Shown piece after piece: positions 1,773-17,433 of a stretch of 64,000 nucleotides of DNA. This DNA is from Escherichia coli. GTDB lineage: Bacteria > Pseudomonadota > Gammaproteobacteria > Enterobacterales > Enterobacteriaceae. Made by a program: the position numbers and the translations under genes. Every line of letters starts with the position of its first letter. The first letter of the stretch is position 1. The notes beneath the pieces were generated by a model. It was not told the origin of the DNA, made no database searches, and worked only from the letters and a program-made list of their open reading frames with translations. The stretch lies in assembly GCF_024223415.1 (NCBI RefSeq), contig NZ_CP100500.1. One strand, written 5' to 3'.

Positions 1773-1774
1773 CC

Positions 1775-2551: not shown

Positions 2552-2569
2552 CGGCTGACCCCGTCAGAA

Positions 2570-2639: not shown

Positions 2640-2654
2640 CTGAAGGAGCGATTT

Positions 2655-3149
2655 ATGAGCATGGTCGCAAGACCGGAAGCCGCCCCTGCACGGGACGATA
2701 TCCCCGACACCGACGACGGCGACGCCACCATCACCGCCGGGGCATTCTGGCCGGAGATTGTGCTGCGGGAGCTGCGCCTTGCAGTACGCCTGCCGGGCCG
2801 CATCACCTCCACACGTCTGGCGCACGTTGCCACGGGAGCCGTGGCTCACGTCACGCGGGAGCTGGAAGAGTGGCAGAAGACGCAGTCTGCCGCAGGGTTC
2901 AGCATCCTCGCAGAAGTGCCTGCCGCCACCATCAACGGTGAGAGCGTCAACGTATGGCATTACCGCAACGCCGTCTACAGCGCCACCCGCGCCCTGATTC
3001 TGGAACGCTGGCGGGATGTGGACACCACTGATAAAGGGAACCGCCGGGCTGACGCACTGGATGAGCAGATGGAAGACTTATGGCGCGATGTGCGCTGGTC
3101 CGTGGCAGATATTCTGGGTCGCCCCCGTCTTTTTGCGGAGCTGGTGTGA
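2655..3149 (+). CDS. Head completion/stabilisation protein (P2 gpL-like)
   Basis: 164-aa ORF; position after terminase small subunit; stop overlaps next start (TGATG). Confidence 0.55.
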   Translation: MSMVARPEAAPARDDIPDTDDGDATITAGAFWPEIVLRELRLAVRLPGRITSTRLAHVATGAVAHVTRELEEWQKTQSAAGFSILAEVPAATINGESVNVWHYRNAVYSATRALILERWRDVDTTDKGNRRADALDEQMEDLWRDVRWSVADILGRPRLFAELV

Positions 3150-3346
3150 TGAAAGTGAGGGCACTCCAGGGGGATACCGTCGATTTACTCTGTTTCCGGC
3201 ACTACGGCACCACGCAGGGGGTGACCGCACAGGTACTTGATGCCAATCCCGGGCTCTGCCGCCAGGTAATTCTGGAAGCGGGACAGGAGGTGGAGATGCC
3301 GGAGCCGGAAAAGAAACAGCAACGCGAAAAGGTAAAGCTATGGTGA
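3149..3346 (+). CDS. Tail protein X (P2 gpX-like, LysM-like)
   Basis: 65-aa ORF starting MKVRALQGDTVDLLCFRHYG at ATG 3149, overlapping previous stop. Confidence 0.5.
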   Translation: MKVRALQGDTVDLLCFRHYGTTQGVTAQVLDANPGLCRQVILEAGQEVEMPEPEKKQQREKVKLW

Positions 3347-3630
3347 CGGGATTTTTTCAGCGCGTCAGTGACTGGATCACCTTCTGGGCGTCAGTGACGG
3401 CAACAACCATTGGTGTTATGACCATCAGCGAAAAAATTGCGCTGGCCGGGCTGCTTCTGGGGTCACTTTCCGCCATCCATGCCTGGTGCCACCGCAGGCG
3501 TACGGAGCAGGCAATGAAGCGCCGCAATGACCTTATCGCCCGCATCCTGGCACGTTCAGAAAACCGCGAGCTTCACGACGGTGAGAGACGGGCACTGGAC
3601 AGCGTGAGACAGGACGGAGAAGAGCGGTGA
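3340..3630 (+). CDS. Holin, two predicted transmembrane helices
   Basis: 96 aa with two hydrophobic stretches (WITFWASVTATTIGVMTI, IALAGLLLGSLSAIHAW) and charged C-tail; directly upstream of endolysin. Confidence 0.5.
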   Translation: MVTGFFQRVSDWITFWASVTATTIGVMTISEKIALAGLLLGSLSAIHAWCHRRRTEQAMKRRNDLIARILARSENRELHDGERRALDSVRQDGEER

Positions 3631-4172
3631 AACTGCCGGTAAAACGTTATGCGGTGGCGGCCATTGTGGCGCTGGGCGTCTCCATGGCACCCGGTGAACT
3701 GAGAACCTCACGGGAAGCACAGATAAAAATCGCCACCCGGGAAGAGTGCCGGGCGACACCGTACCGTGATATTGCAGGAGTAATGACCGTGGGATGTGGT
3801 TCAACAGGGGGCGTGGAGAACCGGGTTTACGGAGAAAAGGAGGTGGCCCGCCGCTGGGTGAATGACCTGCGGCACGCGGAAAACTGTATCAACCAGAACT
3901 TCAGCGGTGCCGCCATGCCCCAGTCCGCCTTTGAGGCGATGACCGACGCGGCGTTCAACGTCGGCTGTACCGGCCTGATGTGGTACCGGGACAGGAGCGG
4001 CAACCGGCAGCGCACCACCATCTGGAAGCACGCACAGGCGCACCGCTGGGTGGCGATGTGCGGGAGACTGACCGATTTTGTCAACAGTGGCGGACGCCGC
4101 TCACAGGGGCTGGTTAACCGCCGGGAGGAGTTCAGACAGTGGTGTCTTCGCGACACGGGAGGCAGCACATGA
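3627..4172 (+). CDS. SAR-type endolysin (T4/P1 Lyz-like lysozyme with N-terminal signal-anchor)
   Basis: N-terminal weakly hydrophobic Ala/Gly-rich segment MKLPVKRYAVAAIVALGVSMAPG followed by lysozyme-like motifs (EEC..TPYRD...CINQNF...AFNVGC...DFVNSGG); resembles P1 Lyz rather than P2 gpK. Confidence 0.65.
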   Translation: MKLPVKRYAVAAIVALGVSMAPGELRTSREAQIKIATREECRATPYRDIAGVMTVGCGSTGGVENRVYGEKEVARRWVNDLRHAENCINQNFSGAAMPQSAFEAMTDAAFNVGCTGLMWYRDRSGNRQRTTIWKHAQAHRWVAMCGRLTDFVNSGGRRSQGLVNRREEFRQWCLRDTGGST

Positions 4173-4576
4173 GACCGGTTTACGCCGTGATTGTTGCCCT
4201 CATGGTGACCACCCTGACGGCGGCGGCCATGTGGCAGTCATACCGGCTGGGGCGTGCCGGTGAGGCACGTGACGCCGCAGAGCAGCAGCTGGGCGAATAC
4301 AGCCGGGCGCTGCGTGAGTCCTCCGCCGTTATCAGCGATGCCTCCGCCGTACTGCATGAGGTGATGACGCAGCGACAGAAAAGGGCACAGGAAGGAGAAG
4401 TCAGACGTGAACAGCTTCGCGAAATTGCTGCGACGGATGAGTGCGCCGGCACTCTTCCTGACCACCGTTTTACTGACCGGCTGCGCGAACACACGGAACG
4501 CGCCACTGCCCGCGCCCTCCTTCCGGTTCATTCCGGCGGGACTGACGACGGGAACACGGCCCCCGCCCTTCCCTGA
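4169..4576 (+). CDS. i-spanin (Rz/LysB-like)
   Basis: ATG at 4169 with GGGAGG upstream; N-terminal TM helix then charged coiled-coil-like region; contains embedded out-of-frame lipoprotein ORF. Confidence 0.5.
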   Translation: MRPVYAVIVALMVTTLTAAAMWQSYRLGRAGEARDAAEQQLGEYSRALRESSAVISDASAVLHEVMTQRQKRAQEGEVRREQLREIAATDECAGTLPDHRFTDRLREHTERATARALLPVHSGGTDDGNTAPALP

Positions 4577-4721
4577 ACACCCCACCTGGGGAAATATCGG
4601 GATATGGAGCGACAGCCTCCTGGATGCACTGGAAACCTGCAACGCAGACAAACGGGCCATTGAGGCGATGGAGCGCCGGAGACTCAACCGACAGAACGGA
4701 GAGGCGCATGCTGAAAAGTAA
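4407..4721 (+). CDS. o-spanin lipoprotein (Rz1/LysC-like), starts inside i-spanin in another frame
   Basis: GTG 4407 preceded by AGGAG; lipobox LLTGC; Pro-rich mature part; overlaps i-spanin 3' end and tail completion gene start. Confidence 0.5.
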   Translation: MNSFAKLLRRMSAPALFLTTVLLTGCANTRNAPLPAPSFRFIPAGLTTGTRPPPFPEHPTWGNIGIWSDSLLDALETCNADKRAIEAMERRRLNRQNGEAHAEK

Positions 4722-5172
4722 ATCCCTGAGCACACACATGAGTACAGCGTGCCGGTGGTGCAGGGCCAACCCGGAAAAGTTCACCGTGTTCATTGAACGT
4801 GGCGGGATAGAGACCACCGGCGAGACGCCGACGTTCGTGTACAACTACCGGCTGGTGATGTTCGTGATGGACTACACGGGCGATCTGGACAACCTGACGC
4901 TTCCACTGATTGTCTGGCTGGCAGAGAACCAGCCGCAGTTGCTGCTTAATCCTGAGCGCAACAACGATATTCAGTTCACGGCGGCCATTAACGACGACGA
5001 CAGCGCGGACGTGCTGTTTGAGCTGCCGTTACGTGAACGCGTGCGCGTCACCCGCAGGGATGACGGCACCCTCATGACAGAACATCTACCGGAGCCGAAA
5101 TCACGCATCCCGCAGGACGGCGACTGGTCACACATTCTGGAGGATGTGACGTGGAACATTGTCACCGGATAA
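4708..5172 (+). CDS. Tail completion protein (P2 gpR-like)
   Basis: ATG 4708 with GGAGAGG upstream; 154 aa; position before gpS-like gene. Confidence 0.5.
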   Translation: MLKSKSLSTHMSTACRWCRANPEKFTVFIERGGIETTGETPTFVYNYRLVMFVMDYTGDLDNLTLPLIVWLAENQPQLLLNPERNNDIQFTAAINDDDSADVLFELPLRERVRVTRRDDGTLMTEHLPEPKSRIPQDGDWSHILEDVTWNIVTG

Positions 5173-5187
5173 CACGCGGAGAATGTT

Positions 5188-5844
5188 ATGGGGAAACTGA
5201 GATACCGTAACCTCGTTCCCGCTGAAGGAATGAGTAACATGTTTGTCAATATCCGGCTGGCAACCAGCCCGCAGGCAGTGAAGCGCATTGCCGCGCATGT
5301 GGGTAAGGAGCTGCGGCGCGTGAACCAGAGCCGGATGCGCGCCCAGAAAGCGCCGGACGGTTCGGTGTGGACACGCCGTAAACGCCGTATATCACGCCTT
5401 CAGGAGCGCATCAGCTTTATCTGGCAAAACCAGAACCGCACCCTGAAAAACTGGCATCACGGTTCAGGAAAATACGGCCAGACCATCACCGGCTGGGATG
5501 AAGACCGGAGCGGCATACGTACCTTTTACCGGAGTGATATCCTCCGTTTCCTTGAAATCAGGACACGCCGCATCAACCGTGACACCACAAAAACGGTGCC
5601 GATGTTTGCGAAGCTGCGCACGGCCCGTTATCTGAAAGTGAAGGCGGACGCATCAGGTGTGACGGTGGGCTACAGCGGCGTGGCGGCACGCATTGCCCGC
5701 GTTCACCAGTTCGGGGAGCGCGACCGGGTGGCCGCAGGGATGTATACGGATTATCCGGCCCGTGAACTTCTTGGAATAACACCGGCAGATGAACGACTTA
5801 TTCAGCGTATCATTATGGACAATATCGCGAGGGCTGTGGCATGA
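5188..5844 (+). CDS. Tail completion / virion morphogenesis protein (P2 gpS-like)
   Basis: 218-aa ORF with RBS; gene order R-S-V-W. Confidence 0.5.
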   Translation: MGKLRYRNLVPAEGMSNMFVNIRLATSPQAVKRIAAHVGKELRRVNQSRMRAQKAPDGSVWTRRKRRISRLQERISFIWQNQNRTLKNWHHGSGKYGQTITGWDEDRSGIRTFYRSDILRFLEIRTRRINRDTTKTVPMFAKLRTARYLKVKADASGVTVGYSGVAARIARVHQFGERDRVAAGMYTDYPARELLGITPADERLIQRIIMDNIARAVA

Positions 5845-6422
5845 ACGCGGAATTAATGCGCCTTATCAGCAACATCATCAGAACCGGCGTGATTTTCGAC
5901 GTGAACCCGCAGACCTGGGAGGTCCGGGTGCGCAGTGGCGGACTGGAGACAGGCTGGCTTCGCTGGAGCACCGCGCGGGCGGGCGCGTTCAGTGTCTGGG
6001 TGCCGCCAGCCACCGGTGAACAGGTGGCGTTCGTCTGTATCGGTGGTAATCCCGAAACCGCGATAATCATCGGCAGCCTCTGGAGCGATGATATCCCGGC
6101 ACCGGGCAGCACACTGAAGGAAATCATCATGACAGCACCGGACGGTGCGGTATTCCGCTACGATGCAGACGCCGGTGCACTGGAGGTTAAGGGGATTAAA
6201 ACAGCCAGCATTCAGGCCGACACGCGCATCACCCTGGACACGTCGGAGGTGGTGTGTACCCGCAAACTTATCACCGCCACCCTGGAGGTGCAGAACGGCG
6301 GCGAGATGCGCGGCAGCATATCCCACAGCGGCGGCAGCCTGACATCCAACGGTATCACCGTTCATACGCACACCCACGGTGGCGTCAGGACGGGCCCGGG
6401 CACCACGGGAGGCCCGCAATGA
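5841..6422 (+). CDS. Baseplate assembly/spike protein (P2 gpV-like)
   Basis: 193 aa; Gly-rich C-terminus HTHTHGGVRTGPGTTGGPQ; overlaps W start. Confidence 0.65.
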   Translation: MNAELMRLISNIIRTGVIFDVNPQTWEVRVRSGGLETGWLRWSTARAGAFSVWVPPATGEQVAFVCIGGNPETAIIIGSLWSDDIPAPGSTLKEIIMTAPDGAVFRYDADAGALEVKGIKTASIQADTRITLDTSEVVCTRKLITATLEVQNGGEMRGSISHSGGSLTSNGITVHTHTHGGVRTGPGTTGGPQ

Positions 6423-6769
6423 CCGCTGTTTACAGGGGGATGAACCCGCAGGGAACCGGCACGCTGAGCGACAGCGAACACCTGAAAAACAGCGTGCGGG
6501 ATATCCTGACCACACCGCCAGGCAGCCGGGTGATGCGCCGCGAATACGGCAGCCTGTTACCGGACCTCATCGACGAGCCCATGAACGACACCACGCGTTT
6601 ACAGTGCATGAGCGCCACGGTGACTGCGCTGGCGCGCCATGAACCCCGTATAGCACTGCAGAACGTCGATGTGAACTGGCGGGCTGGCGGACGCGCCGTG
6701 GTGACGTTATCCGGCATCATCACCGAAACCATGCAGAACATCACATTCAGTATCACCCTGAGGGAGTAA
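6419..6769 (+). CDS. Baseplate protein (P2 gpW / gp25-like)
   Basis: ATG 6419 overlapping V stop (ATGA); 116 aa. Confidence 0.65.
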   Translation: MTAVYRGMNPQGTGTLSDSEHLKNSVRDILTTPPGSRVMRREYGSLLPDLIDEPMNDTTRLQCMSATVTALARHEPRIALQNVDVNWRAGGRAVVTLSGIITETMQNITFSITLRE

Positions 6770-6772
6770 ATC

Positions 6773-7669
6773 ATGCCTTCCGTTGACCTGTCACAGTTAC
6801 CGGAACCGGCCATCATCGCGCAGCCGGATTTTGAGTCCATCCTGGCAGACATTAAAACCATGATGGTGAGCTCCTTCCCGGAAGAATACCGCGCCGCCGT
6901 CACCCGTGCCCTTACTCTGGAATCCGAGCCATTGAACATCATTTCCCAGGCCATGGCCTTTCGTGAAATGCTGCTTCGCCAGCGCATCAATGAAGCCGCC
7001 CGCGCCTGCATGCTCAGCCACAGCCGGGGCAGTGACCTGGACAATCTGGCCGCCAACAACAACACCCGCCGCCTGGTCATTCATCCGGCCACTGATACCA
7101 CGGAAGCAGTGATGGAAAGCGACACATCGCTGCGTCTGCGTGCCCAGTCAGCCTGGGACGGCCTGAGTGTGGCCGGACCGTCCGGCGCGTATGAGTATTT
7201 TGCCCGGAGCGCAAGCGGTCTTGTCCGTGATGCGCGCGCCATCAGCCCGTCACCGGCCACAGTCACCGTCTCCATCCTGTCAGCAGACGGTGACGGCACC
7301 GCCGGTGAGGCGTTACTGAACACGGTGCGCACCGCCCTGAATGCCGAGAACGTGCGCCCGGTTGCCGACCGCCTGACTGTGCAGAGTGCTACCATCGTGA
7401 ACTGGGTAATGGAAGCGAAGCTGTATTTTTATCCAGGGCCGGAGTCTGAACCCATGCTTGCGGCCGCTGACGCCGCTTTCCGTGCATGGCTGGCAGACCA
7501 GGGCCGTATCGGTCAGGACGTGGCCCTGTCAGCCATCACTGCAGCGCTGCATGTTCACGGTGTCCAGCGCGTTGAGGTCATAAAACCCACGCAGAACATC
7601 ACCATCAGTGACACTCAGGCAGCCAGATGTACCACATTCAGCATCAGCGAAGGAGGACGCAATGAGTGA
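6773..7669 (+). CDS. Baseplate assembly protein J (P2 gpJ-like)
   Basis: 298-aa ORF following W. Confidence 0.7.
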   Translation: MPSVDLSQLPEPAIIAQPDFESILADIKTMMVSSFPEEYRAAVTRALTLESEPLNIISQAMAFREMLLRQRINEAARACMLSHSRGSDLDNLAANNNTRRLVIHPATDTTEAVMESDTSLRLRAQSAWDGLSVAGPSGAYEYFARSASGLVRDARAISPSPATVTVSILSADGDGTAGEALLNTVRTALNAENVRPVADRLTVQSATIVNWVMEAKLYFYPGPESEPMLAAADAAFRAWLADQGRIGQDVALSAITAALHVHGVQRVEVIKPTQNITISDTQAARCTTFSISEGGRNE

Positions 7670-8225
7670 CAGGAAAAAAACAGACAGCGCACAGCACAGT
7701 ACATCACTGCTTCCACCGTCCGCAGGGCCATTCATGCGCGCCACAGAGGCGACAGGAGTACGCATCAGTACCATACCGGTGGACGCCGACACCCTGTGGT
7801 CGCCGGACCGCTGCCCTGCTCACCTCCTGCCCTACCTTGCATGGGCATGTTCCGTTGACAGCTGGGACCGCAACTGGCCGGAAGAGACCAGGCGACAGGT
7901 GATTCGGGACGCATGGATGATACATCGCCACAAAGGGACCATCAGTGCACTCCGCCGCATCGTTGAACCACTGGGCTACCTCATCCGTGTATCAGAATGG
8001 TGGGAGTTTGACGGCTCGCCCGGGACCTTCACCATTGAGATTGGCACACTTGAAACCGGAGTAAGTGAAGAGCTGCATGAAGAAATGGAGCGTCTGATTG
8101 CCGATGCGCGCCCCGTCAGCCGCCACCTCGTGGGGCTTAGTATCATCCAGGAAATACACGGTGCCATTTACGCCGCTGCCGCAGGTTACGACGGCGACAT
8201 CATCACCATTTACCCGGAAGACTGA
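7662..8225 (+). CDS. Baseplate/tail protein I (P2 gpI-like)
   Basis: ATG 7662 with AGGAGGA upstream, overlaps J stop; 187 aa. Confidence 0.65.
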   Translation: MSDRKKTDSAQHSTSLLPPSAGPFMRATEATGVRISTIPVDADTLWSPDRCPAHLLPYLAWACSVDSWDRNWPEETRRQVIRDAWMIHRHKGTISALRRIVEPLGYLIRVSEWWEFDGSPGTFTIEIGTLETGVSEELHEEMERLIADARPVSRHLVGLSIIQEIHGAIYAAAAGYDGDIITIYPED

Positions 8226-8228
8226 ACC

Positions 8229-10463
8229 ATGAGCACGAGAAAATTCAGAACCCTTATCACCGACATCGGGCTGGCAAAGCTGGCCGCAACAACGGCGCCT
8301 GGCGGTAGACCTGTACGCCTTACGCACATGGCTGTAGGGGACGGCAATGGAGAGCTTCGTCAGCCGCAGAAAAACCAGACATCGCTTTACAATGAGGTTT
8401 GGCGCCAGTCTGTCAACCGCGTCTTCACCGACCCGGAGAACCCGAACCGCCTCATCGCCGAACTGGTCATTCCTCCTGAAACCGGCGGATTCTGGGTGCG
8501 TGAAATTGGTGTGTTTGATGATACAGGTACAATGATTGCAGTAGGAAATACCGCTGAAAGTTACAAGCCCACCAGAGAGGAAGGTTCAGGGCGGGCGCAG
8601 ATATTCCGTGCAGTAATCACCGTCACCTCCGACGCCGTGGTGGAACTGGTCATGGACACAACAACAATTCTGCCGACCACGGACTACATTGATGAGAAAA
8701 TAGCGGAACACGCACGTTCCCGTAACCACCCTGACGCGACACTGACAGAAAAAGGATTCACCCAACTGAGCAGCGCCACAAACAGCACCTCTGAAACACT
8801 GGCCGCCACACCGAAGGCCGTCAAGGCTGCATATGACCTTGCAGCCGGTAAAGCACCCGCCAGCCACACCCACCCGTGGAATCAGATAACAGGTGTGCCA
8901 TCAGCCTCGCTGACGGCAAAAGGCACCGTACAGCTGAGCAGTGCCACAAACAGTGAGTCAGAGACTGAGGCCGCCACCCCCAAAGCGGTTAAAGCCTTAC
9001 ACGATATGGTGACGAGCAAGTATACAGGACAGGATGCAACCACCGGACGCAAAGGCATCGTACAGCTGAGCAGCGCCACAAACAGCAATTCCGAAACACT
9101 GGCGGCCACACCGAAGGCAGTAAGTGATGCACTGAGCATGGCGTTCGTGAAGCCAACAACATCCCTGGGGGAAACAGACCTGAACACTCTGGGGAGTAAG
9201 GAAGACGCGGGAGATTATTACCAGCAGAGTGACTCAGGTGCGAGAACAGACAGAAACTATCCTGTAGAGAAGGCAGGAGAGTTACGCATCCGTGTTGGTG
9301 CATGGGGATTCTGCCAGCATGAATACACGAGCTGGGATCCGCCACGAAAATTTATCAGGACAGTTACCGGAAACTTTAACGGTAACGGCCCATGGTCAGA
9401 GTGGGTGGAGGTGACAAACACAGATGCAACAACTGGACGCAAAGGCATCGTACAGCTGAGCAGCGATACAAACAGCAATTCCGAAACGCTGGCGGCCACA
9501 CCAAGAGCCGTCAAGGCTGCATATGACCTTGCAGCCGGTAAAGCACCCGCCAGCCACACCCACCCGTGGAATCAGATAACAGGTGTGCCATCAGCCTCGC
9601 TGACGGCAAAAGGCACCGTACAGCTGAGCAGTGCCACAAACAGTGAGTCAGAGACTGAGGCCGCCACCCCCAAAGCGGTTAAAGCCTTACACGATATGGT
9701 GACGAGCAAGTATACAGGACAGGATGCAACCACCGGACGCAAAGGCATCGTACAGCTAAGCAGCGCCACAAACAGCAATTCCGAAACGCTGGCGGCCACA
9801 CCAAAAGCTGTTAAAGCTGCGTATGACCTTGCCAACAGCAAAGCCTCGGCAGCCCACACTCATCGCTGGGCTCAGATCACAGACGCCCCTGTTTTTTCGT
9901 CTGTTGCCCGCGTCATCATGGGTAAACAAAGCATAAAAGATATTCTTGATTACCTTGGTTTAGGAGAAGGCTCGACGCTGCCAGTTGGCGTACCCGTTCC
10001 GTGGCCTTCGTCAAGACCACCTGAGGGGTGGTTACAGTGCAACGGTGCCGCATTCACGCGTACAAAATACCCAAAACTGGCGGTGGCCTACCCTGACCTC
10101 AGGCTACCAGATTTGCGCGGGGAATTTATTCGTGGATGGGATGACCTGCGAATGATTGACAGGGGACGCTTATTGTTATCCACACAGGAAGCAACATATA
10201 TTTGTACCGCCATACAGGCGTACCACGGCGTAGCGGGAGGTGCAGATATTCAGGCAGGGATTTCATTTGCATCACATGATAACGACATCATAAACATAAC
10301 CCCTGATCAACCCAGAACCGGTAACGGCATCCTGTACGGCACAAAACCAGTTGACAGATGGGCAATAGCCAGAGCCGGTAAGCTGGTGAGTAATGAAAAA
10401 GACAGATGGATAGCGATCAGACCGCGCAATATCGCTTTTAATTATATTGTGAGGGCAGTTTAA
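8229..10463 (+). CDS. Tail fibre protein (P2 gpH-like) with internal repeats
   Basis: 744 aa; three copies of motif TGRKGIVQLSSATNSNSETLAATPKAVK typical of phage tail-fibre repeats; followed by tail fibre assembly gene. Confidence 0.8.
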   Translation: MSTRKFRTLITDIGLAKLAATTAPGGRPVRLTHMAVGDGNGELRQPQKNQTSLYNEVWRQSVNRVFTDPENPNRLIAELVIPPETGGFWVREIGVFDDTGTMIAVGNTAESYKPTREEGSGRAQIFRAVITVTSDAVVELVMDTTTILPTTDYIDEKIAEHARSRNHPDATLTEKGFTQLSSATNSTSETLAATPKAVKAAYDLAAGKAPASHTHPWNQITGVPSASLTAKGTVQLSSATNSESETEAATPKAVKALHDMVTSKYTGQDATTGRKGIVQLSSATNSNSETLAATPKAVSDALSMAFVKPTTSLGETDLNTLGSKEDAGDYYQQSDSGARTDRNYPVEKAGELRIRVGAWGFCQHEYTSWDPPRKFIRTVTGNFNGNGPWSEWVEVTNTDATTGRKGIVQLSSDTNSNSETLAATPRAVKAAYDLAAGKAPASHTHPWNQITGVPSASLTAKGTVQLSSATNSESETEAATPKAVKALHDMVTSKYTGQDATTGRKGIVQLSSATNSNSETLAATPKAVKAAYDLANSKASAAHTHRWAQITDAPVFSSVARVIMGKQSIKDILDYLGLGEGSTLPVGVPVPWPSSRPPEGWLQCNGAAFTRTKYPKLAVAYPDLRLPDLRGEFIRGWDDLRMIDRGRLLLSTQEATYICTAIQAYHGVAGGADIQAGISFASHDNDIINITPDQPRTGNGILYGTKPVDRWAIARAGKLVSNEKDRWIAIRPRNIAFNYIVRAV
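8817..9067 (+). repeat. Direct repeat copy 1 inside tail fibre gene (identical to 9507-9757)
   Basis: Lines 8821-9060 are base-for-base identical to 9511-9750; offset 690 bp, in frame. Confidence 0.9.
9507..9757 (+). repeat. Direct repeat copy 2 inside tail fibre gene
   Basis: Same as above; first mismatch at about 9758. Confidence 0.9.
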
Positions 10464-11074
10464 TGAGTAACACTGCAGTTCTGGATGAAAACGGTATCGC
10501 CACTTTCGCAGGCGATATCACTGTATATCACTATGATGAGGAAACCCGGGAATACACCTCATCCTCTGTGGAGTATCTGGCCCTGGGGGTGGGTACCCCG
10601 GCACATTCATGCGCCGATGCCCCGCCAGAGGCAATGCCGGGTTACGTGATTTGCCGGACGTCCACGCTGGACGGGTGGGAGTATGTCCCCGATCATCGTG
10701 GAGAGACGGTATACAGCACAGAGAACGGTAATCCGGTCCAGATTACCCAACCAGGTGACTACCCGGAAGGGACAACGACAAAACAGCCTGCCACACCATG
10801 GGATACCTGGAACGGTGAGGCGTGGGTAACCGATACAGAACGGCAGCAAGCCGAAGAGCTGGAGGTTGCCAGACAGCAACGCAAGGAACGGGTGGATCAG
10901 GCGATGAAGTCCATCGACCTCATCAACCTTAAGTTGCGGGCAGGTCGCAGTCTGACACCAGAAGAAACGGCAAAACTGAATGCCGTGCTGGATTATATCG
11001 ACGAGCTGAACGCACTGGATATCAGCACGGAGCCTGAAATAAGCTGGCCGGAAACACCACCAGAAATGGAATGA
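10463..11074 (+). CDS. Tail fibre assembly protein (Tfa/gpG-like)
   Basis: 203 aa immediately after tail fibre gene (ATG overlaps stop). Confidence 0.65.
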   Translation: MSNTAVLDENGIATFAGDITVYHYDEETREYTSSSVEYLALGVGTPAHSCADAPPEAMPGYVICRTSTLDGWEYVPDHRGETVYSTENGNPVQITQPGDYPEGTTTKQPATPWDTWNGEAWVTDTERQQAEELEVARQQRKERVDQAMKSIDLINLKLRAGRSLTPEETAKLNAVLDYIDELNALDISTEPEISWPETPPEME

Positions 11075-11117
11075 GCGGGGAAAAGGAACGGGCATTCATA
11101 AATAATTCATCATGCAG

Positions 11118-11137
11118 GTGCCGCAAGAATGCGGCAC
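11118..11137. terminator. Hairpin between convergent G-like and U-like genes
   Basis: Perfect inverted repeat gtgccgca agaa tgcggcac in the 70-bp gap between convergent genes. Confidence 0.3.
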
Positions 11138-11144
11138 ATTACCT

Positions 11145-11633
11145 TCACATCAGATCATTTACGCCGCTTACTGTGGTATTCCAGACCGAACTTAACTTCC
11201 CTTTCATTCCCGAAAGCATATCAGACACCGGTGACGAGGCCATACTCTCCCGCAAATCCTCATCACAGCGTTCCAGACTGACAGTGAACTCAATTTTTTT
11301 GGCCTTACCGTGGCGGTCAAGTTCGCTTCGCGTTGTGCGGACAGCCGTTATCACATACATGCCGTATATCTGCCCCACACCGTCAATCAGCGGCCATGGG
11401 CGACCAGTGTAAGCCTGCGTCGTTAAAAGGCTGAGGGAAACCTCACCGCCGGTAATTTCGGGATAAAGCACACCGGACAACGTGATCTGGTCGTCACCCG
11501 CCCCGATATACTGCCAGCTGGCCGAACGATTGATGCGTTCATTTTTAACGTGGCGCCAGGTTTTATTATGTTGCAGTTGTTGATGAGGCAGCGTACGCAA
11601 CTCAAAAACAAACATGCCGTAAATCATCATCAT
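11145..11633 (-). CDS. Tail protein U (P2 gpU-like)
   Basis: 162 aa; downstream of tape measure gene on minus strand. Confidence 0.6.
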   Translation of the reverse strand: MMMIYGMFVFELRTLPHQQLQHNKTWRHVKNERINRSASWQYIGAGDDQITLSGVLYPEITGGEVSLSLLTTQAYTGRPWPLIDGVGQIYGMYVITAVRTTRSELDRHGKAKKIEFTVSLERCDEDLRESMASSPVSDMLSGMKGKLSSVWNTTVSGVNDLM

Positions 11634-11644
11634 GCGAGGTACTC

Positions 11645-14600
11645 CTAATCTCTGTCACGGAAACTACCGACTGTCTGGCGGATACGGCGTTCCATTTCCG
11701 CACGGACGGCATCACCCACCATTTTTGCCAGTTCGCGCGGGTTTTGCGTGTGAACATCATGCAGGTGAATATGCAGTTCGCCAGTTAATCCCCATGGTGC
11801 CGCCTCACTCTGGCGCGGTCGGGGCGATGCGGGGGATATGGGCTGGCGCACAGCCTCAACCACCGGACGGGATGTTGCCGCCATCACTGGTGTCATTAGC
11901 GGGGAGAACGTCGGCATGACATCGTGAGTCATAACCGGTTTGATCACCGGCGGAACCACTGGCGTAATATTACCGGACAGTACCGGACGGACGACCGGAG
12001 GAATAACCGGCACATTATTCACGGACACCACCGGCTTCACGACCGGCGACACGTTCGCCGTGGTGGATATCAGCGGCGAAACACTGACAGGCGGTGGCGC
12101 TGGCAGCGGTGGCAACGAAGGCACACTGACCGACGGCACCTGCGGCAGTCTGACAGGTGGCTCACTGACACTACCCGGTAACAGGGAAGCTGCGCGGTTA
12201 AAGCGTTCCTCCTTCCACTCACCACGAACGGCCAGCGCTTCCGGCAGGTTTTTAAAGATAATATCGCCGGGACCAGCGCGTTTTTTCGCCTGTTTCGCCT
12301 CATCCAGCAGACCACCGGTGTTATCGACGATTTTGTTCAGGCGGCGCATAGTGCCGGTATTCTCCCCCGTCAGGGGTGGTTGCCCCCCTTTGGGTTTTTC
12401 GCCGTATTTTTTATCCTCGTCCTTTTTCGGCGGATTAATGACGTTAACATCCGCCAGAAGCATGGCAGCTTTCTCGTTCAGCAACTCCTTCTGTTTTAGT
12501 TCTTCCGCTTTTTTCCGGGCGCGCTCAACCGCTGACGGAATCAGCCCGAGTTTTTCCAGCACCCGGGTTAATGAGTCAATCAGCAGCGTAACCGGACCGG
12601 TCACCAGATTGCTGATAAACTCCCCGACCTTCTGCCCGAACGTCCGCCCGGCTTCCGTGCACTTGTCCAGCTCATCCTTTGTTGTGCTTACCGGCGCGAA
12701 CAAATCCACGAACCACTGCCACACACGCCCGATTGTCTGCCCGACATACTCAAACAATGGTCCCAGTGGTGCCACAGCCTCGCGCAGTGGCGTAAGCCCC
12801 TGCCACAGGCCGGACAAGAACCCGCCCACGACAGCCTTCAGCTGGTCCCAGTGCCGCCAGATAAGCACTGCCGCACCGACCAGTGTCGCCACCACAAGGC
12901 CCACCGGACTTAACAGAAAACCCAGCGCCCCGCCAAGTGCGCCCACCGCACCACTCACCATCCCCCACAGTGCGGGCAGACCTGACAGTCTGAGCGCCAG
13001 TATTCCGATACCGCGCCCCAGTGAAATCAGTGCGCCGCCAGGTGAAGTGAACGCAGCCAGCAGACCACCACGCAGCGCGCCAAGTCCCGCCTGCACACCA
13101 CGAAGCCGCCCCGCAACTACGCCCAGCAGTGCAGCAAACCGTCCGGCACCGGAGGTGATACCGACAAACAGCACGCGCCAGCCACCGATACCGCCCAGCG
13201 GACCACCGAGTACGCCGCGCAGCTGCGTCAGTAACGGCAGCGCACGACCGAGGCCGGATGTGCCGGTCAGCAGGGCAAACCCAAGACGCAGTTTTGCCAG
13301 CGGCCCCATCAACACACCAGTGGCAAGTGACAGCGCCCCCATGGCCGCAACCGCAGCCAGCAGTACACCACCGGCAATCAGCAGTTGTTTTGTCAGTTCA
13401 GGGTGCGCCTGAGCCAGCGCGGTGACTTTCGCAATAACCCGGGTGAACGACTGCGTGACAGAACGCAGCGGCCCGTCAACGAGGTCAGCGATACGGATAC
13501 GCAGTCCTTCCCATGCGCTGTTCAGTGATTTCAGGTCACCGTCCAGGTTATCAACCATAACACGGGCAGTCTGATTAAGTTCCCCGGTGGCCAGTTCAAT
13601 CTCCTGCGTAAGACGGGGAAGATTATTTTCCCCCGCCGCAGTGACAAGATTCATCAGGGAAACATAGGACTCCTGCCCGGCAATAGCCCTGAAAAAGGAG
13701 ACCTGCGCGGCATTACCGTATTTTCGGGTGGCCTGGTACAGCTCATTCAGGATATTTTCCATCCGGCGCATGTTCCCGTAAGCATCCTGCGTCTCCACGC
13801 CAAGCTCTTTCAGTGCCATTGCAGCGGCCTTCGGCGGATCAACCAGACGTGACAGACTGGCACGCAGCGCCGTACCTGCATCACTTCCACGGATCCCCAC
13901 ACTGCCAAGGACACCCGTCATGGCTGCCGCCTGTTCAAGGGACAGGCCAAGTGAAGCTGCAACCGGCCCCGTGTACTTCATGGTTTCACCCAGCGAACGG
14001 AGATCCGTATTGGTTCGTGTGAAGGTGGCGGCCAGCGTGTCACCCACGCGATCCATCTGGTCAGCGGACAGACCAAACTGTGTGAGGATATTCGAACTGA
14101 TATCGGCAGTCTGTCCCAGGTCCATCCCTGCAGCCATTGCCAGATCAAGCACGCCGGGTAGCGCCGCCTGTATGGCCTGTGGTGTGAAGCTGGCCATGGC
14201 AAGGAACGCCTGACCGCTGGCAGCATCACCGGCGGTAAACTGCGTTTCAGAGCCCAGCTTAATGGCCTGTTCGCGCAGCGCCTTAAACTGCGGACTGTTT
14301 TTGTCAATACGGGTCAGCGCCTGGACGCGCGACATCTCCTTACCAAAACTGACCGCCGGTTGCAGGAAACGTCCGGCCGCATAGCCGCCTGCCGCCGCCG
14401 TACCAACCGCCGTAAGTCCGACCGTTTTAAGTTTTCCCGCCGTCTCCTGAGCACGGGAATATTGCTGGCGTGCCTGCGTGACACGTGCCAGCGCCTGCCG
14501 TTCGCGTTCCAGCTGGTCGTTGTATTGCTGTGTTCGCCGTATGGCCTGTTGAATGGTGTTGTCACTGCCGGAAAGCGCAATACCGTGGCGCCGCAGCTCA

Positions 14601-14992
14601 CCACCCAGTTCGCGCATTCGCTGAACTTCACGCGCACGGACCTCATTGAGACGCTCAAGTTTGAGGCTCAAATCGTTCATCAGCTTTTTCTGTTTGTCAG
14701 ACAGCACGGTTCCGGCGCGCTGAATTTGCTGAAGTGCGCTTAACTGGCGTTGCGCCCTGACAATGCCGTTTCCGGCCTTGTTTGCAGCCTCGCGGGCGCG
14801 ATCAAATGAACGGGCGTGGCGTTCCAGGTTTTTGATCGCACCCTGCGTTCTCTGTATGGAGTCGCCAAGCTGGCCCATCATGCGACGGGCGTTTTCGGTG
14901 GGACGGGTCAGCCTGTCAACAGCGCTGAAGGCGACCCGTATATCAAGCGTTTTCATGCTCTGCGTTCCCGCTGCGAAGGGCCGCCCGCTCAC
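11645..14992 (-). CDS. Tail tape measure protein (P2 gpT-like), with Pro/Val-rich C-terminal repeats
   Basis: 1115-aa ORF, long helical Ala/Gly-rich regions; alternative ATG start at 14956. Confidence 0.8.
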   Translation of the reverse strand: MSGRPFAAGTQSMKTLDIRVAFSAVDRLTRPTENARRMMGQLGDSIQRTQGAIKNLERHARSFDRAREAANKAGNGIVRAQRQLSALQQIQRAGTVLSDKQKKLMNDLSLKLERLNEVRAREVQRMRELGGELRRHGIALSGSDNTIQQAIRRTQQYNDQLERERQALARVTQARQQYSRAQETAGKLKTVGLTAVGTAAAGGYAAGRFLQPAVSFGKEMSRVQALTRIDKNSPQFKALREQAIKLGSETQFTAGDAASGQAFLAMASFTPQAIQAALPGVLDLAMAAGMDLGQTADISSNILTQFGLSADQMDRVGDTLAATFTRTNTDLRSLGETMKYTGPVAASLGLSLEQAAAMTGVLGSVGIRGSDAGTALRASLSRLVDPPKAAAMALKELGVETQDAYGNMRRMENILNELYQATRKYGNAAQVSFFRAIAGQESYVSLMNLVTAAGENNLPRLTQEIELATGELNQTARVMVDNLDGDLKSLNSAWEGLRIRIADLVDGPLRSVTQSFTRVIAKVTALAQAHPELTKQLLIAGGVLLAAVAAMGALSLATGVLMGPLAKLRLGFALLTGTSGLGRALPLLTQLRGVLGGPLGGIGGWRVLFVGITSGAGRFAALLGVVAGRLRGVQAGLGALRGGLLAAFTSPGGALISLGRGIGILALRLSGLPALWGMVSGAVGALGGALGFLLSPVGLVVATLVGAAVLIWRHWDQLKAVVGGFLSGLWQGLTPLREAVAPLGPLFEYVGQTIGRVWQWFVDLFAPVSTTKDELDKCTEAGRTFGQKVGEFISNLVTGPVTLLIDSLTRVLEKLGLIPSAVERARKKAEELKQKELLNEKAAMLLADVNVINPPKKDEDKKYGEKPKGGQPPLTGENTGTMRRLNKIVDNTGGLLDEAKQAKKRAGPGDIIFKNLPEALAVRGEWKEERFNRAASLLPGSVSEPPVRLPQVPSVSVPSLPPLPAPPPVSVSPLISTTANVSPVVKPVVSVNNVPVIPPVVRPVLSGNITPVVPPVIKPVMTHDVMPTFSPLMTPVMAATSRPVVEAVRQPISPASPRPRQSEAAPWGLTGELHIHLHDVHTQNPRELAKMVGDAVRAEMERRIRQTVGSFRDRD

Positions 14993-15469
14993 GCCAGGCG
15001 ACCACCTCGCCGGGATCCATCAGGAAGATTTCAGCGGGAGACCAGTTGAAAATAACGGCGATATCCGCCACAAAGTCTTCAATGTGCTCAAAGGGCACGA
15101 CGGTTATCAGCCTGCCGTCGCCGCCCCGCTCTTCCCGCCAGAGTCCTGACCGGCCAAAAAATTAACCGCCACCCCGCACAGCTGAATAAAATCAGCGGAC
15201 CCCATGCGCTTAAGCAGAACCTCGTCCAGTCGCGGCGAAGTGACGCGCGGGAGTAACTCAAACATCGCGTCCGTTTTCATGTTCAGCACGTCAAGCAGTG
15301 ACAGCCCGCGCAGTGAACCGGCCTGCTGTACAGCAGGCGTGATTTCCACATACGTGATTTTTTTGTTACCGAGCACAAGGGGCGTTTTCAGCGTCACGCC
15401 GCGCTCACTGGTCACGTCCGCCGCATCAGCACCGTCAGTAACAGGGGCAACAACCGGATTTTCTTTCAT
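14943..15469 (-). CDS. Tail assembly chaperone E+E' (predicted -1 frameshift product)
   Basis: After slip at T TTT TTG the -1 frame stays open for about 65 codons to TGA near 14943, overlapping tape measure start. Confidence 0.4.
15107..15469 (-). CDS. Tail assembly chaperone E (P2 gpE-like)
   Basis: 120-aa ORF between tube and tape measure genes. Confidence 0.6.
   Translation of the reverse strand: MKENPVVAPVTDGADAADVTSERGVTLKTPLVLGNKKITYVEITPAVQQAGSLRGLSLLDVLNMKTDAMFELLPRVTSPRLDEVLLKRMGSADFIQLCGVAVNFLAGQDSGGKSGAATAG
15155..15161 (-). other. Slippery heptamer T TTT TTG (programmed -1 frameshift site)
   Basis: Plus strand caaaaaa = minus ttttttg, in phase X XXY YYZ with codons N-F-L of chaperone E. 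Confidence 0.5.
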
Positions 15470-15519
15470 GCATAAAACCTCAAATCAGGGGGCGACGCCG
15501 CGCGCCGCCGTGGGAAACA

Positions 15520-16038
15520 TTAACCACCAAGACCAATCGCCGAGCGCACGCGGTCCGGGAAGACGTTTTTGCCGTCCTTGCGTTCGATGTGGTTCAGTAA
15601 ATCAATCTCCAGCACCGGACGGTCGTTAATGCTGAGTTTGTAGTAGGTACTCCTGACCGCATAGGTGTGAGACGTGACCTCACCCTGTTTTGCCTCCCCC
15701 GTATCAATTTCCGTCACGCGGCCGCGAAGCTCAATTTCATACAGGTCGCTCTGCTCTTCATCGTTGTAGTACTCACCGACAAAGCGCAGCAGCGTACCGT
15801 CGATCGTGCCGCCGTACTTAAGGAACAGTTCGCGGGTCGGCCCGCCCATGGTGAAACTCGCATCCAGCGCGCCGTCATCCAGACCAAGGTCGATATTCAC
15901 CGCGCCGGCCATACCACCACCGCGATAGGCTTCCGTTTTACGGGTCAGTTTGGGGGGCGTGAAGCCGGTCACCCTGCCAATCTGGTTCACCCCGTCAGTA
16001 AACAGCGTGAACACCCTGAGATTTTTTGGTACGGCCAT
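15520..16038 (-). CDS. Major tail tube protein (P2 gpFII-like)
   Basis: 172 aa, immediately downstream of sheath gene (TAATG overlap). Confidence 0.8.
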   Translation of the reverse strand: MAVPKNLRVFTLFTDGVNQIGRVTGFTPPKLTRKTEAYRGGGMAGAVNIDLGLDDGALDASFTMGGPTRELFLKYGGTIDGTLLRFVGEYYNDEEQSDLYEIELRGRVTEIDTGEAKQGEVTSHTYAVRSTYYKLSINDRPVLEIDLLNHIERKDGKNVFPDRVRSAIGLGG

Positions 16039-17321: not shown

Positions 17322-17433
17322 ATGTTTCACCCTTGTCTGGCTGGTTGATTTTGCGTAATCATTACCCACACACGCGGTAATCTCACCCCTTTGATGTTGT
17401 CTCCTGACAGCGACAACAAAACAGCCATTCAAC

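What the first reader, a model, noticed from the sequence alone, without database searches (positions are those of the whole stretch)
8817..9757. Perfect 251-bp in-frame direct duplication inside the tail fibre gene
8817-9067 is identical to 9507-9757 (offset 690 bp = 230 codons), within a broader triplicated TGRKGIVQLSSATNSNSETLAATPKAVK motif. Zero divergence implies a very recent duplication or ongoing gene conversion, and the repeat is a ready substrate for RecA-mediated expansion or contraction of the fibre shaft. The identical antisense ORFs 8882-9187 and 9572-9859 are a by-product.
Basis: seen in the sequence. Interest (0 to 1): 0.4.

Follow-up and report, generated by a model that had tools for sequence, protein, structure and literature searches.

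The report
Shuffled repeat modules in prophage tail fibre
The perfect 251-bp repeat is real and sits in the tail-fibre gene of a P2-like E. coli prophage whose shaft is built from interchangeable repeat modules; the duplication is old and widespread, and only its perfect identity is special to this genome, so this is an ordinary example of how phage fibres evolve by recombination between repeats.

Summary
Observation confirmed: window 8817-9067 equals 9507-9757 exactly (251 bp, offset 690 bp = 230 codons). Both copies lie in gene H (8229-10463, 744 aa) of a P2-like E. coli prophage.

The shaft has six Phage_fiber_2 modules in the order 56 aa, 44 aa, motif plus pyocin-type Knob, 56 aa, 44 aa, then motif plus gp37-like collar/tip. 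The repeat is the tail of a 56-aa module, a whole 44-aa module and the start of the next motif. The Knob between the copies is not repeated, so this is not a tandem duplication.

The same 744-aa architecture occurs in 22 complete E. coli genome records. In all seven I read, the copies differ at three sites. The duplication is therefore neither an assembly artefact nor private to this strain.

Chromosome-scale relatives show intermediate haplotypes; CP070393.1 is one conversion tract away from the window. That points to short-tract gene conversion. An assembly or polishing artefact for the last differences is not excluded (about 0.2).

Sister alleles of 626, 756, 800, 812 and 901 aa, some on near-identical prophage backbones, show that modules are gained, lost and swapped. 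The predicted 230-codon deletion appears only in short-read assemblies, partly with impossible haplotypes, so it is unverified.

Known kind of feature; low interest.

The parts
8229..10463 (+). Tail fibre gene (P2 gene H homologue), 744 aa
   Evidence: Single ORF. Pfam Phage_tail_fib N-terminal domain at aa 4-151 (6e-50), six Phage_fiber_2 repeats and a Collar domain at aa 587-634. 58.6% identity to P2 gpH over 65% of the query. Annotated 'tail fiber protein' in 22 E. coli genome records.
8229..8750 (+). N-terminal baseplate-attachment domain (aa 1-174)
   Evidence: PF12571 match. This 522-bp N-terminal coding segment differs by 0-3 nt among sister alleles of different length.
8751..8918 (+). 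Shaft module 1, 56-aa type: motif KGFTQLSSATNSTSETLAATPKAV plus a tail containing HTH
   Evidence: Module parsing. Phage_fiber_2 best stretch at aa 171-210.
8817..9067 (+). Copy 1 of the perfect 251-bp repeat: last 2 codons of motif 1, the 32-aa tail of module 1, the whole of module 2 and the first 5.7 codons of module 3
   Evidence: Exact identity to 9507-9757. In relatives this copy reads T, G, G at 8891, 8972, 9009.
8919..9050 (+). Shaft module 2, 44-aa type (KGTVQLSSATNSESETEAATPKAV plus KALHDMVTSKYTGQDATTGR)
   Evidence: P2 gpH has its two motifs at the same 44-aa spacing.
9051..9122 (+). Motif of module 3 (KGIVQLSSATNSNSETLAATPKAV)
9123..9440 (+). Internal pyocin-type Knob domain (aa 299-404). 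It is unique sequence between the two repeat copies.
   Evidence: No Pfam or NCBIfam hit. 276 representative clusters hold relatives, often internal and in several copies. A profile of it matches R2/R1 pyocin fibres 6ct8, 6cl6 and 6cl5 at E 1.7e-9 to 1.6e-5, over the Knob2 region. AF2 model pLDDT 89. Best Foldseek PDB hits are 6ct8, 6cl6 and 6cl5 with TM 0.60.
9441..9608 (+). Shaft module 4, 56-aa type (motif KGIVQLSSDTNSNSETLAATPRAV plus a tail containing HTH)
9507..9757 (+). Copy 2 of the perfect 251-bp repeat
   Evidence: In relatives this copy reads A, C, C at 9581, 9662, 9699.
9609..9740 (+). Shaft module 5, 44-aa type. This is the one truly duplicated module; the sister 756-aa allele has a 56-aa module here.
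   Evidence: Alignment of the window with L029 (P0101): identical on both sides and diverging only across this module.
9741..10460 (+). Module 6 motif plus the C-terminal receptor-binding part (third HTH, Collar domain, gp37-like tip)
   Evidence: Pfam Collar at aa 587-634. T4 gp37 tip 2xgf at 2.2e-12 and Mu fibre S 5yvq at 1.7e-7.
10463..11074 (+). Tail fibre assembly chaperone (P2 gene G / lambda Tfa type)
   Evidence: Pfam Caudo_TAP 4.5e-27. Annotated 'tail fiber assembly protein' in relatives.
6773..8225 (+). Baseplate genes J (6773-7669) and I (7608-8225), directly upstream
   Evidence: Pfam Baseplate_J and Tail_P2_I. Same order as in P2.

Best explanation
The repeat lies in gene H, the tail fibre of a P2-like (Peduoviridae) prophage of E. 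coli.

Architecture (shown). The fibre has an N-terminal baseplate-attachment domain, a modular shaft and a C-terminal gp37-like collar/tip, which is served by the Tfa chaperone encoded downstream. Every shaft module begins with the same 24-aa Phage_fiber_2 motif (72 bp of DNA). It continues either with a 32-aa tail carrying an HxH motif ('56-aa module'), with a 20-aa tail ('44-aa module'), or with a pyocin-type Knob domain. This allele reads 56, 44, Knob, 56, 44, C-terminus.

What the 251 bp is (shown). It consists of the tail of a 56-aa module (already near-identical in all such modules), one complete 44-aa module and the first bases of the next motif.

Origin (inferred). The two-block arrangement arose by homologous recombination or gene conversion in register at the conserved motifs. 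That event placed a copy of the 44-aa module in the second array, where a sister allele has a 56-aa module.

Age (shown). The event is old relative to this strain. The same architecture is widespread in E. coli, with copy 1 reading T, G, G and copy 2 reading A, C, C at three sites.

Perfect identity here (inferred). It is most likely the end product of short-tract gene conversion between the two blocks. These are host RecA-type events in the prophage, possibly involving a co-resident related prophage. A relative one step away exists.

Function (inferred by analogy with P2, T4 gp37 and R-type pyocin fibres). Module number sets shaft length and the spacing between the Knob, a possible second glycan-binding site, and the tip. 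Recombination at the motifs therefore generates fibre length and Knob variants.
For: Architecture:
- Pfam N-terminal domain, six Phage_fiber_2 repeats and Collar; Tfa downstream; J and I upstream.
- Module coordinates.
- Knob identified by profile and by fold.
- gp37 and Mu S matches. P2 gpH has two motifs 44 aa apart.

The duplication is real and old:
- 22 complete E. coli genome records hold the full 2235-bp gene at 99.7-99.8% identity with no length change.
- In seven of them that I read, the copies differ at 8891/9581, 8972/9662 and 9009/9699, and the longest exact run is 80 bp.
- The prophage is colinear with strain DG341-1 over 19,463 bp with 20 SNPs. Three of these fall in the 502 bp of repeat (binomial P = 0.014).

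Exchange rather than mutation:
- The same variant bases segregate in homologous modules of other alleles.

Conversion intermediates in chromosome-scale contigs:
- CP070393.1 has copy 2 = A, C, G. The window equals this plus one tract, 8891-8972, copied from copy 2 into copy 1.
- L032 and L018 have copy 1 = T, G, C.
- L016 carries the derived base 8856G in both copies (P210A plus P440A) while the other sites stay different.
- L031 carries an 812-type variant (8942C) in copy 1.

Module swap:
- The 756-aa allele L029 is identical to the window on both sides of module 5 and differs only there.

Module-number polymorphism in chromosome-scale assemblies:
- 626, 744, 756 (two orders), 800, 812 and 901 aa.
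- The 626-aa Knob-less allele sits in a prophage that differs from the window by 2 of 3000 bp upstream, 0 of 522 bp in the N-terminal segment and 1 of 581 bp in the C-terminal segment.

HxH iron sites in fibres: Buth et al. 2018, PMC6116203.
Against: - The direction of change cannot be proven. At 9195 the window has a private base, and at 9954 the relatives have the derived base. The window could therefore in principle retain an ancestral identical state.
- Short-read assemblies of this gene show both copies carrying the same per-site mosaic (T,C,C; A,G,G). They also show collapsed 514-aa forms with haplotypes impossible for one crossover. Assemblers can therefore manufacture 'perfect identity' here. 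The reads and the assembly method of the window's genome are unknown.
- No length variant is seen among near-identical 744-aa prophages, so expansion and contraction are not fast.
- L018 shows a patchy, non-contiguous pattern (9009 and 9098 converted, 9068 not), which needs more than one simple tract.
- Fibre trimer structure, the iron sites, Knob binding and the role of length are all inferred, not tested.
Confidence: 0.68

Rival explanations
1. The copy number is real, but the zero divergence is an assembly or polishing artefact. On this reading the true genome has 2-3 differences between the copies, like its relatives. A collapsed graph edge used twice, or short-read polishing, wrote one consensus into both copies.
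For: - The window haplotype A, C, G in both copies is a per-site mixture of the usual copy-1 (T,G,G) and copy-2 (A,C,C) states.
- The same kind of 'identical mosaic' occurs in metagenome scaffolds and in a 4-kb draft contig: T,C,C, A,G,G, and T,G,G plus 8967A.
- Collapsed 514-aa forms occur only in short-read assemblies. Three of nine carry haplotypes (T,C,G and A,G,G) that no single crossover can give.
- The exact window protein is known from a single contig only.
Against: - The window comes from a 5.56-Mb chromosome-scale contig.
- A complete genome (CP070393.1) has the immediate intermediate, differing only at 8891 and 8972 within the repeat. One ordinary contiguous conversion tract therefore suffices.
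- With that parent the copies share no stretch longer than 95 bp, so a k=127 graph would not collapse them (my reasoning, not tested).
- Other chromosome-scale contigs show simple partial conversions.
Confidence: 0.2
2. The window preserves the pristine product of the original duplication, with identical copies. On this reading the common T,G,G / A,C,C state of relatives arose later, by import of variants from other alleles.
For: - At 8891 and 9954 the window base agrees with the sister alleles L001-L004, while the 744-aa relatives carry a different base.
- Any fresh duplication starts with identical copies.
Against: - It needs at least three later changes, fixed together in nearly all other 744-aa alleles on several continents.
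- The window allele is a singleton and has its own private substitution at 9195 (S323).
- Its nearest relative, CP070393.1, already has differing copies.
- The reading still requires inter-module exchange, so it changes only the direction of change, not the mechanism.
Confidence: 0.08
3. A very recent, strain-private tandem duplication of a 690-bp unit, or an expansion artefact of assembly.
For: Perfect identity and an in-frame offset.
Against: - The same 2235-bp gene is in 22 complete genome records and many other contigs.
- Only about 370 of the 690 bp is repeated, and the Knob is not.
- TRF finds no tandem array, although its longest period is 500 bp.
Confidence: 0.02
4. A programmed diversification device: a diversity-generating retroelement template/variable-repeat pair, or an invertase-driven shufflon like the Mu G or P1 C segments.
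For: Tail fibres are the classic targets of both kinds of system.
Against: - The copies are direct repeats, and both are coding within one ORF.
- Differences between the copies in relatives are T/A, G/C and G/C, not adenine-specific.
- No reverse transcriptase or invertase is annotated anywhere in the colinear prophage.
- The only inverted repeat found is a weak pair, 27 nt at 70% complementarity.
Confidence: 0.02

Closest known systems
Phage P2 tail fibre gpH and the Pfam Phage_fiber_2 (PF03406) repeat family. Conserved fibre motifs were proposed as recombination sites by Haggard-Ljungquist et al. 1992 and Sandmeier 1994; I cite both from memory and from reference lists, because I could not read them.
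   Same: - N-terminal domain PF12571, and gene order J-I-H-G.
- The motif KG.(V/T)QLSSATNS.SETLAATPKAV directly after the N-terminal domain.
- The 44-aa motif spacing is also present in P2 gpH.
- 58.6% identity over 65% of the protein.
   Different: - Six modules instead of two, in two alternating lengths (56 and 44 aa).
- Three HxH motifs, where P2 gpH has none.
- An internal Knob domain.
- A gp37-like collar/tip instead of the P2 C-terminus.
- No isolated phage in the phage collection covers at least 80% of the protein.
R1/R2 pyocin fibre Knob domains (Buth et al. 2018, PMC6116203; PDB 6CL5, 6CL6, 6CT8)
   Same: - Profile match at E 1.7e-9 over the Knob2 region.
- These are the best fold matches, TM 0.60.
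- A globular domain interrupting a thin trimeric fibre. The paper argues that repeats let fibres adjust length and that Knob2 contributes to target specificity.
   Different: - One Knob, not a tandem pair.
- It is flanked on both sides by Phage_fiber_2 modules.
- The distal domain is a Collar/gp37-like tip, not the lectin-like 'foot'.
- The Knob is present or absent among sister alleles; the 626-aa allele lacks it.
- Binding function was not tested.
Motif-mediated recombination in T-even distal fibre genes gp37/gp38 (Tetart et al. 1998, from memory)
   Same: Short conserved motifs inside fibre genes act as homologous crossover points that reshuffle segments.
   Different: In the T-even case the exchange is between phages and swaps adhesin specificity. 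Here the documented exchange is between modules of one gene, or of sister prophage alleles. It changes module number and order, and homogenises copies.
Intragenic repeat-number variation in bacterial surface proteins (for example Legionella, PMC2639597)
   Same: In-frame coding repeats whose number differs between strains through recombination or slippage.
   Different: The repeats here are long (132-168 bp), of two kinds, interspersed with a unique domain and not strictly tandem. The gene belongs to a prophage virion.

Membership tests
P2 gpH-type tail fibre (Peduoviridae) | N-terminal baseplate-attachment domain (Pfam PF12571) | tested here: met
   aa 4-151, E 6e-50.
P2 gpH-type tail fibre (Peduoviridae) | Gene position: after baseplate genes J and I, and before a fibre-assembly chaperone | tested here: met
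   Baseplate_J, Tail_P2_I and Caudo_TAP neighbours. Same order in P2 and in annotated relatives.
P2 gpH-type tail fibre (Peduoviridae) | Sequence similarity to P2 gpH itself | tested here: met
   tblastn gives 58.6% identity over 65% of the query (aa 5-623), E 7e-75. The C-terminal tip is not shared.
P2 gpH-type tail fibre (Peduoviridae) | Assembles as a trimeric fibre on the baseplate and binds the host receptor | not testable with these tools
   Needs virions, adsorption assays or cryo-EM.
Phage_fiber_2 repeat proteins (PF03406) | Repeated roughly 40-aa motif | tested here: met
   Six stretches, total 342 bits, E 9e-105. Motif positions aa 175, 231, 275, 405, 461 and 505.
Pyocin-type Knob domain | Sequence-profile similarity to solved R1/R2 pyocin Knobs | tested here: met
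   A profile of 34 homologues matches 6ct8 at 1.7e-9, 6cl6 at 3.8e-9 and 6cl5 at 1.6e-5.
Pyocin-type Knob domain | Knob fold (antiparallel beta-sheet of 5-6 strands with loops) | tested here: met
   AF2 monomer model pLDDT 89, five strands. Top Foldseek PDB hits are 6ct8, 6cl6 and 6cl5 with TM 0.60 and probability 1.0, but E only 7e-3.
Pyocin-type Knob domain | R-pyocin fibre architecture: two tandem Knobs, then Shaft, then lectin-like foot | tested here: not met
   Single Knob between Phage_fiber_2 modules, with a Collar/gp37-like C-terminus. It shares the domain, not the fibre family.
Pyocin-type Knob domain | Binds surface saccharide | not testable with these tools
   Inference from Buth et al. 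2018 only.
Simple tandem duplication | The whole unit is repeated head to tail | tested here: not met
   At offset 690 only 8751-9123 is similar; 9124-9440 has no second copy. TRF finds nothing, though its maximum period is 500 bp.
Diversity-generating retroelement target | Template and variable repeats that differ at adenines, with a nearby reverse transcriptase | tested here: not met
   Copy differences in relatives are T/A, G/C and G/C. No reverse transcriptase is annotated in the colinear prophage.
Invertible fibre segment (Mu G, P1 C, Min) | Inverted crossover sites and a Gin/Cin-type invertase | tested here: not met
   The repeats are direct. The only inverted pair found is weak, 27 nt at 70%. 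No invertase is annotated in the relative.

The most novel reading that the evidence does not exclude
The modular shaft could be a recombinase-free variation device. On this reading, frequent RecA-dependent exchange at the 72-bp motifs would continually produce subpopulations of prophages with fibres of different length, and with or without the Knob. Induced phage bursts would then be heterogeneous in host range, a form of bet-hedging. The perfectly homogenised 251-bp blocks would raise the switching rate in this particular strain.
Probability: 0.1. Interest if true: 0.55.

Novelty: new member of a known kind. Interest (0 to 1): 0.22.

Why it matters
- For annotation, this is an ordinary P2-type tail fibre, and the repeat needs no special feature call.
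- For phage biology, it is a clean natural series. On near-identical prophage backbones there are at least seven shaft architectures supported by chromosome-scale assemblies, a Knob that comes and goes, and stepwise conversion intermediates. The series shows how fibres change length and domain content by recombination at one conserved motif. The module boundaries could guide fibre engineering.
- For methods, the gene is a trap. Short-read assemblies give collapsed 514-aa genes and chimeric copy haplotypes. Variation in this gene should therefore be taken only from long reads.

Tried and rejected
- Pfam and NCBIfam gave nothing for the Knob segment. It was identified only through an exhaustive HMMER search, a profile-versus-PDB search and a fold search.
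- The 73 distinct 744-aa protein variants looked at first like strong evidence for recurrent homogenisation. At aa 261/491 they are V/L in 48, L/L in 14, V/V in 11 and L/V in none, and there are paired substitutions E247K+E477K and P210A+P440A. I down-weighted this. The DNA of several variants comes from short-read assemblies in which both copies carry the same per-site mosaic. Only chromosome-scale contigs are used for the conclusion.
- The exact predicted deletion product (514 aa) is in the protein collection in three variants. I do not accept it as proof of contraction. All contigs are short-read (MEGAHIT k141, metagenome scaffolds, drafts of 3-30 kb), and three of nine have haplotypes impossible for a single crossover.
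- The predicted triplication (974 aa) was not found.
- The exact window protein (P0027) has no entry in the contig index. Its accessions, UTJ24874.1 and WP_254539300.1, say nothing about the assembly method.
- The P2 fibre paper PMC206541 is not held. Sandmeier 1994 is known to me only through reference lists.
- No Chi site lies in the prophage part of the window.
- DGR, invertible-segment, strain-private duplication and copy-number-artefact readings were rejected (see rivals).
Full report
**1. Observation**

Window 8817-9067 and 9507-9757 are identical. The exact run is maximal at 251 bp and the offset is 690 bp, or 230 codons. BLAST of the segment against the whole 64-kb window finds only these two perfect copies plus weak motif matches. 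The repeat finder independently reports a 300-nt pair at spacing 690 and a four-member 160-nt family at spacings 300, 390 and 300.

Both copies lie in one ORF, 8229-10463 on the + strand, 744 aa. Similarity at offset 690 rises through 8751-8816 (16 mismatches in 66 bp). It is perfect for 251 bp and stays high to about 9123, where all 6 mismatches are at third codon positions. It then disappears.

**2. What the gene is**

- Pfam finds the P2-type fibre N-terminal domain (aa 4-151, 6e-50), six Phage_fiber_2 repeats and a Collar domain (aa 587-634). The neighbours are baseplate J and I upstream and a Caudo_TAP fibre-assembly protein downstream.
- The region is colinear, without a single indel, with an annotated P2-like prophage of E. 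coli DG341-1 over 19,463 bp, with 20 SNPs.
- P2 gpH matches at 58.6% identity over 65% of the protein. No isolated phage in the phage collection covers 80% of it.
- The C-terminal part resembles the T4 gp37 tip collar (2xgf, 2e-12) and part of the Mu fibre S.

**3. Module anatomy**

After the 174-aa N-terminal domain the shaft is a string of modules. Each begins with the 24-aa motif KG.(V/T)QLSS.T.S.SE..AATP.AV.

| Module | aa | Type |
|---|---|---|
| 1 | 175-230 | 56 aa, tail KAAYDLAAGKAPASHTHPWNQITGVPSASLTA |
| 2 | 231-274 | 44 aa, tail KALHDMVTSKYTGQDATTGR |
| 3 | 275-404 | motif plus a 106-aa non-repeat domain |
| 4 | 405-460 | 56 aa |
| 5 | 461-504 | 44 aa |
| 6 | 505-744 | motif plus the C-terminal region |

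The 251-bp repeat is therefore the last two codons of a motif, the tail of a 56-aa module, one whole 44-aa module and the first 17 bases of the next motif. P2 gpH itself has two motifs 44 aa apart, so the module is a family trait. The 56-aa tails and the C-terminal region carry HTH. HxH motifs form buried iron sites in T4 gp37, P2 gpV and R-pyocin fibres (Buth et al. 2018). That this holds here is an inference.

**4. The domain between the copies**

Pfam and NCBIfam are silent on aa 299-404. An exhaustive HMMER search finds 276 representative clusters, usually internal to long fibre-like proteins and in up to 13 copies. A profile of 34 homologues hits the R2 and R1 pyocin fibres at E 1.7e-9 to 1.6e-5, over the part that Buth et al. 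call Knob2. An AF2 model (pLDDT 89) has those same chains as its best PDB fold matches, with TM 0.60.

The fibre therefore carries one pyocin-type Knob flanked by repeat modules. This Knob-coding DNA (9123-9440) is not repeated, so the feature is not a tandem 690-bp duplication. TRF finds no array either.

**5. Is the duplication recent or an artefact of copy number? No.**

- The complete 2235-bp gene is present at 99.7-99.8% identity, with no length change, in 22 complete E. coli genome records. These have about 15 distinct chromosome lengths and come from chickens and humans in Europe and Asia.
- In all seven that I read, the two copies differ at 8891 T versus 9581 A, 8972 G versus 9662 C, and 9009 G versus 9699 C. 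Two of the seven also have 8856 G. The longest exact run is 80 bp.
- The protein search shows the 744-aa form to be the commonest allele. One variant is on 444 contigs and another on 162.
- The window's exact protein is known from a single 5.56-Mb E. coli contig.

**6. Where the extra module came from**

A sister 756-aa allele on a 5.68-Mb contig is identical to the window from the Knob through module 4, and again from the motif of module 6 onward. It differs only in between, where it has a 56-aa module and the window has the 44-aa module identical to module 2. The junctions lie in the motif sequences.

The 'duplication' is thus a module replacement or insertion by recombination, or a conversion patch, in register at the motifs. 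The rest of the 251 bp is the 56-aa-module tail that is near-identical in all such modules anyway.

**7. Why the copies are identical here**

- Of the 20 SNPs between the window and DG341-1, three fall in the 502 bp of repeat (expected 0.5; P = 0.014). Each makes the window's copies alike.
- The alternative bases at these sites also segregate in homologous modules of other alleles. They are therefore being moved around, not created anew.
- Chromosome-scale contigs show intermediates:

| Contig | Copy 1 | Copy 2 | Note |
|---|---|---|---|
| Majority of relatives | T,G,G | A,C,C | |
| CP070393.1 (5.59 Mb) | T,G,G | A,C,G | Only three bases from the window allele |
| Window | A,C,G | A,C,G | CP070393.1 plus one contiguous tract, 82 to about 250 bp, copied from copy 2 into copy 1 |
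| L032 (487 kb) | T,G,C | A,C,C | |
| L018 (4.76 Mb) | T,G,C | A,C,C | Also 8856G, and a patchy pattern at 9009/9068/9098 |
| L016 (5.57 Mb) | T,G,G | A,C,C | Derived base 8856G/9546G in both copies |
| L031 (981 kb) | A,C,C | A,C,C | Copy 1 also carries 8942C, a variant typical of the 812-aa alleles, so it was imported from another allele |

- Several chromosomes carry both a 744- and an 812-aa allele (matching contig lengths). Co-resident prophages can therefore serve as donors.

I conclude that short-tract gene conversion is the most likely cause of the perfect identity (about 0.7).

**8. The caveat that matters**

Short-read assemblies of this gene are unreliable.

- Three alleles from metagenome scaffolds or a 4-kb draft contig also have 251 bp of perfect identity. 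Their haplotypes (T,C,C; A,G,G; T,G,G plus a new variant) appear in both copies. Genuine conversion would need two complementary, abutting tracts each time. A collapsed consensus gives this in one step.
- The exact 514-aa product predicted for recombination between the two copies exists in the protein collection in three variants. All nine contigs read are short-read assemblies. Their hybrid haplotypes are A,C,C (three contigs), T,G,C (two), T,C,C (one), T,C,G (two) and A,G,G (one). The last two are impossible for a single crossover between T,G,G and A,C,C.

I therefore treat these forms as unverified. I also keep an assembly or polishing artefact as a live rival (about 0.2) for the window's zero divergence. 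Against it stand the chromosome-scale source and the one-step intermediate in CP070393.1.

**9. Expansion and contraction**

Architectures backed by chromosome-scale assemblies are listed below.

| Length (aa) | Module order after the N-terminal domain |
|---|---|
| 626 | 56-44-56-56-C (no Knob) |
| 744 | 56-44-K-56-44-C |
| 756 | 56-44-K-56-56-C |
| 756 | 56-56-44-K-56-C |
| 800 | 56-56-44-K-56-44-C |
| 812 | 56-56-44-K-56-56-C |
| 901 | About ten modules, with a different tip |

Here K is the 130-aa motif-plus-Knob module and C is the motif plus C-terminal region.

The Knob-less 626-aa allele sits in a prophage that differs from the window by 2 of 3000 bp upstream, 0 of 522 bp in the N-terminal segment and 1 of 581 bp in the C-terminal segment. 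Shaft rearrangements therefore outpace point divergence. Yet none of the near-identical 744-aa prophages shows a length change.

**10. Antisense ORFs**

The ORFs 8882-9187 and 9572-9859 share only the 186 bp that lie inside the repeat. They have no family match and are two of five antisense ORFs that tile the gene. Mismatches between the copies' flanks sit mostly at third positions of the + frame (14 of 22). They are by-products.

**11. Comparison with the known, and verdict**

This is a member of the P2 gpH / Phage_fiber_2 fibre family with an inserted pyocin-type Knob. That conserved fibre motifs act as recombination sites is long established (Haggard-Ljungquist 1992 and Sandmeier 1994, cited from memory and reference lists). 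So is the view that fibres evolve by duplicating repeat units (Buth 2018). DGR and invertase mechanisms fail their defining tests.

The finding is real, correctly located and mostly correctly interpreted, but ordinary: a new member of a known kind. Interest 0.22.

Noticed in passing
window 11145-17468 (minus strand), with 17447-18574 and about 18.6-18.9 kb on the plus strand: The tail genes U, T (tape measure), E, FII (tube) and FI (sheath) lie on the minus strand, between G (+) and D/ogr (+). In phage P2 the genes H, G, FI, FII, E, T, U, D and ogr are all on one strand. The FI-U block is therefore inverted relative to P2 in this prophage lineage.
   Followed up: partly
window 11645-14992 (minus strand): The tape-measure ORF is an uninterrupted 1115 aa here. 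In the colinear, indel-free relative, PGAP annotates only the part equivalent to 12761-14956 as 'partial, missing C-terminus'. About 1.1 kb is left unannotated. Other contigs call products of 1103-1173 aa. This is probably an annotation problem, or an unusual C-terminal extension.
   Followed up: partly
database entries for the protein of window 8229-10463 (P0029, P0037, P0043 and others): Several sources name this tail fibre 'short-chain fatty acid transporter'. This is a propagated misannotation.
   Followed up: no
E. coli chromosomes of 5,645,544, 5,712,798 and 5,386,575 bp (L010): The same chromosomes appear to carry both a 744-aa and an 812-aa allele of this fibre, that is, two related P2-like prophages. 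These would give ectopic donors for module exchange.
   Followed up: partly
L013-L015 and L020-L028 (short-read contigs of the same gene): Short-read assemblies yield a collapsed 514-aa gene and copies with chimeric SNP haplotypes. Some are impossible for a single crossover. This gene is a reproducible assembly trap.
   Followed up: yes
L031 positions equivalent to window 8942 and 9098: In a 981-kb contig, copy 1 carries 8942C, a variant otherwise typical of the 756/812-aa alleles, together with A,C,C. This indicates import from a different allele rather than intragenic conversion.
   Followed up: partly
window 8868-8876, 9558-9566 and 9858-9866 (aa 213-215, 443-445, 543-545): There are three HTH (HxH) motifs, one per 56-aa module tail and one in the C-terminal region. 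HxH motifs bind iron in T4 gp37, P2 gpV and R-pyocin fibres. P2 gpH has none.
   Followed up: partly
RefSeq records H3-H10: Eight 'complete genome' records share the identical length of 5,067,659 bp (four DG3xx strains and four OZ3924xx records). They look like the same or near-identical genomes deposited twice, which inflates genome counts.
   Followed up: no
window 37493-37580: tRNA-Ser (GGA) is the only tRNA in the window. It lies far outside the prophage part that I compared (1-19463).
   Followed up: no
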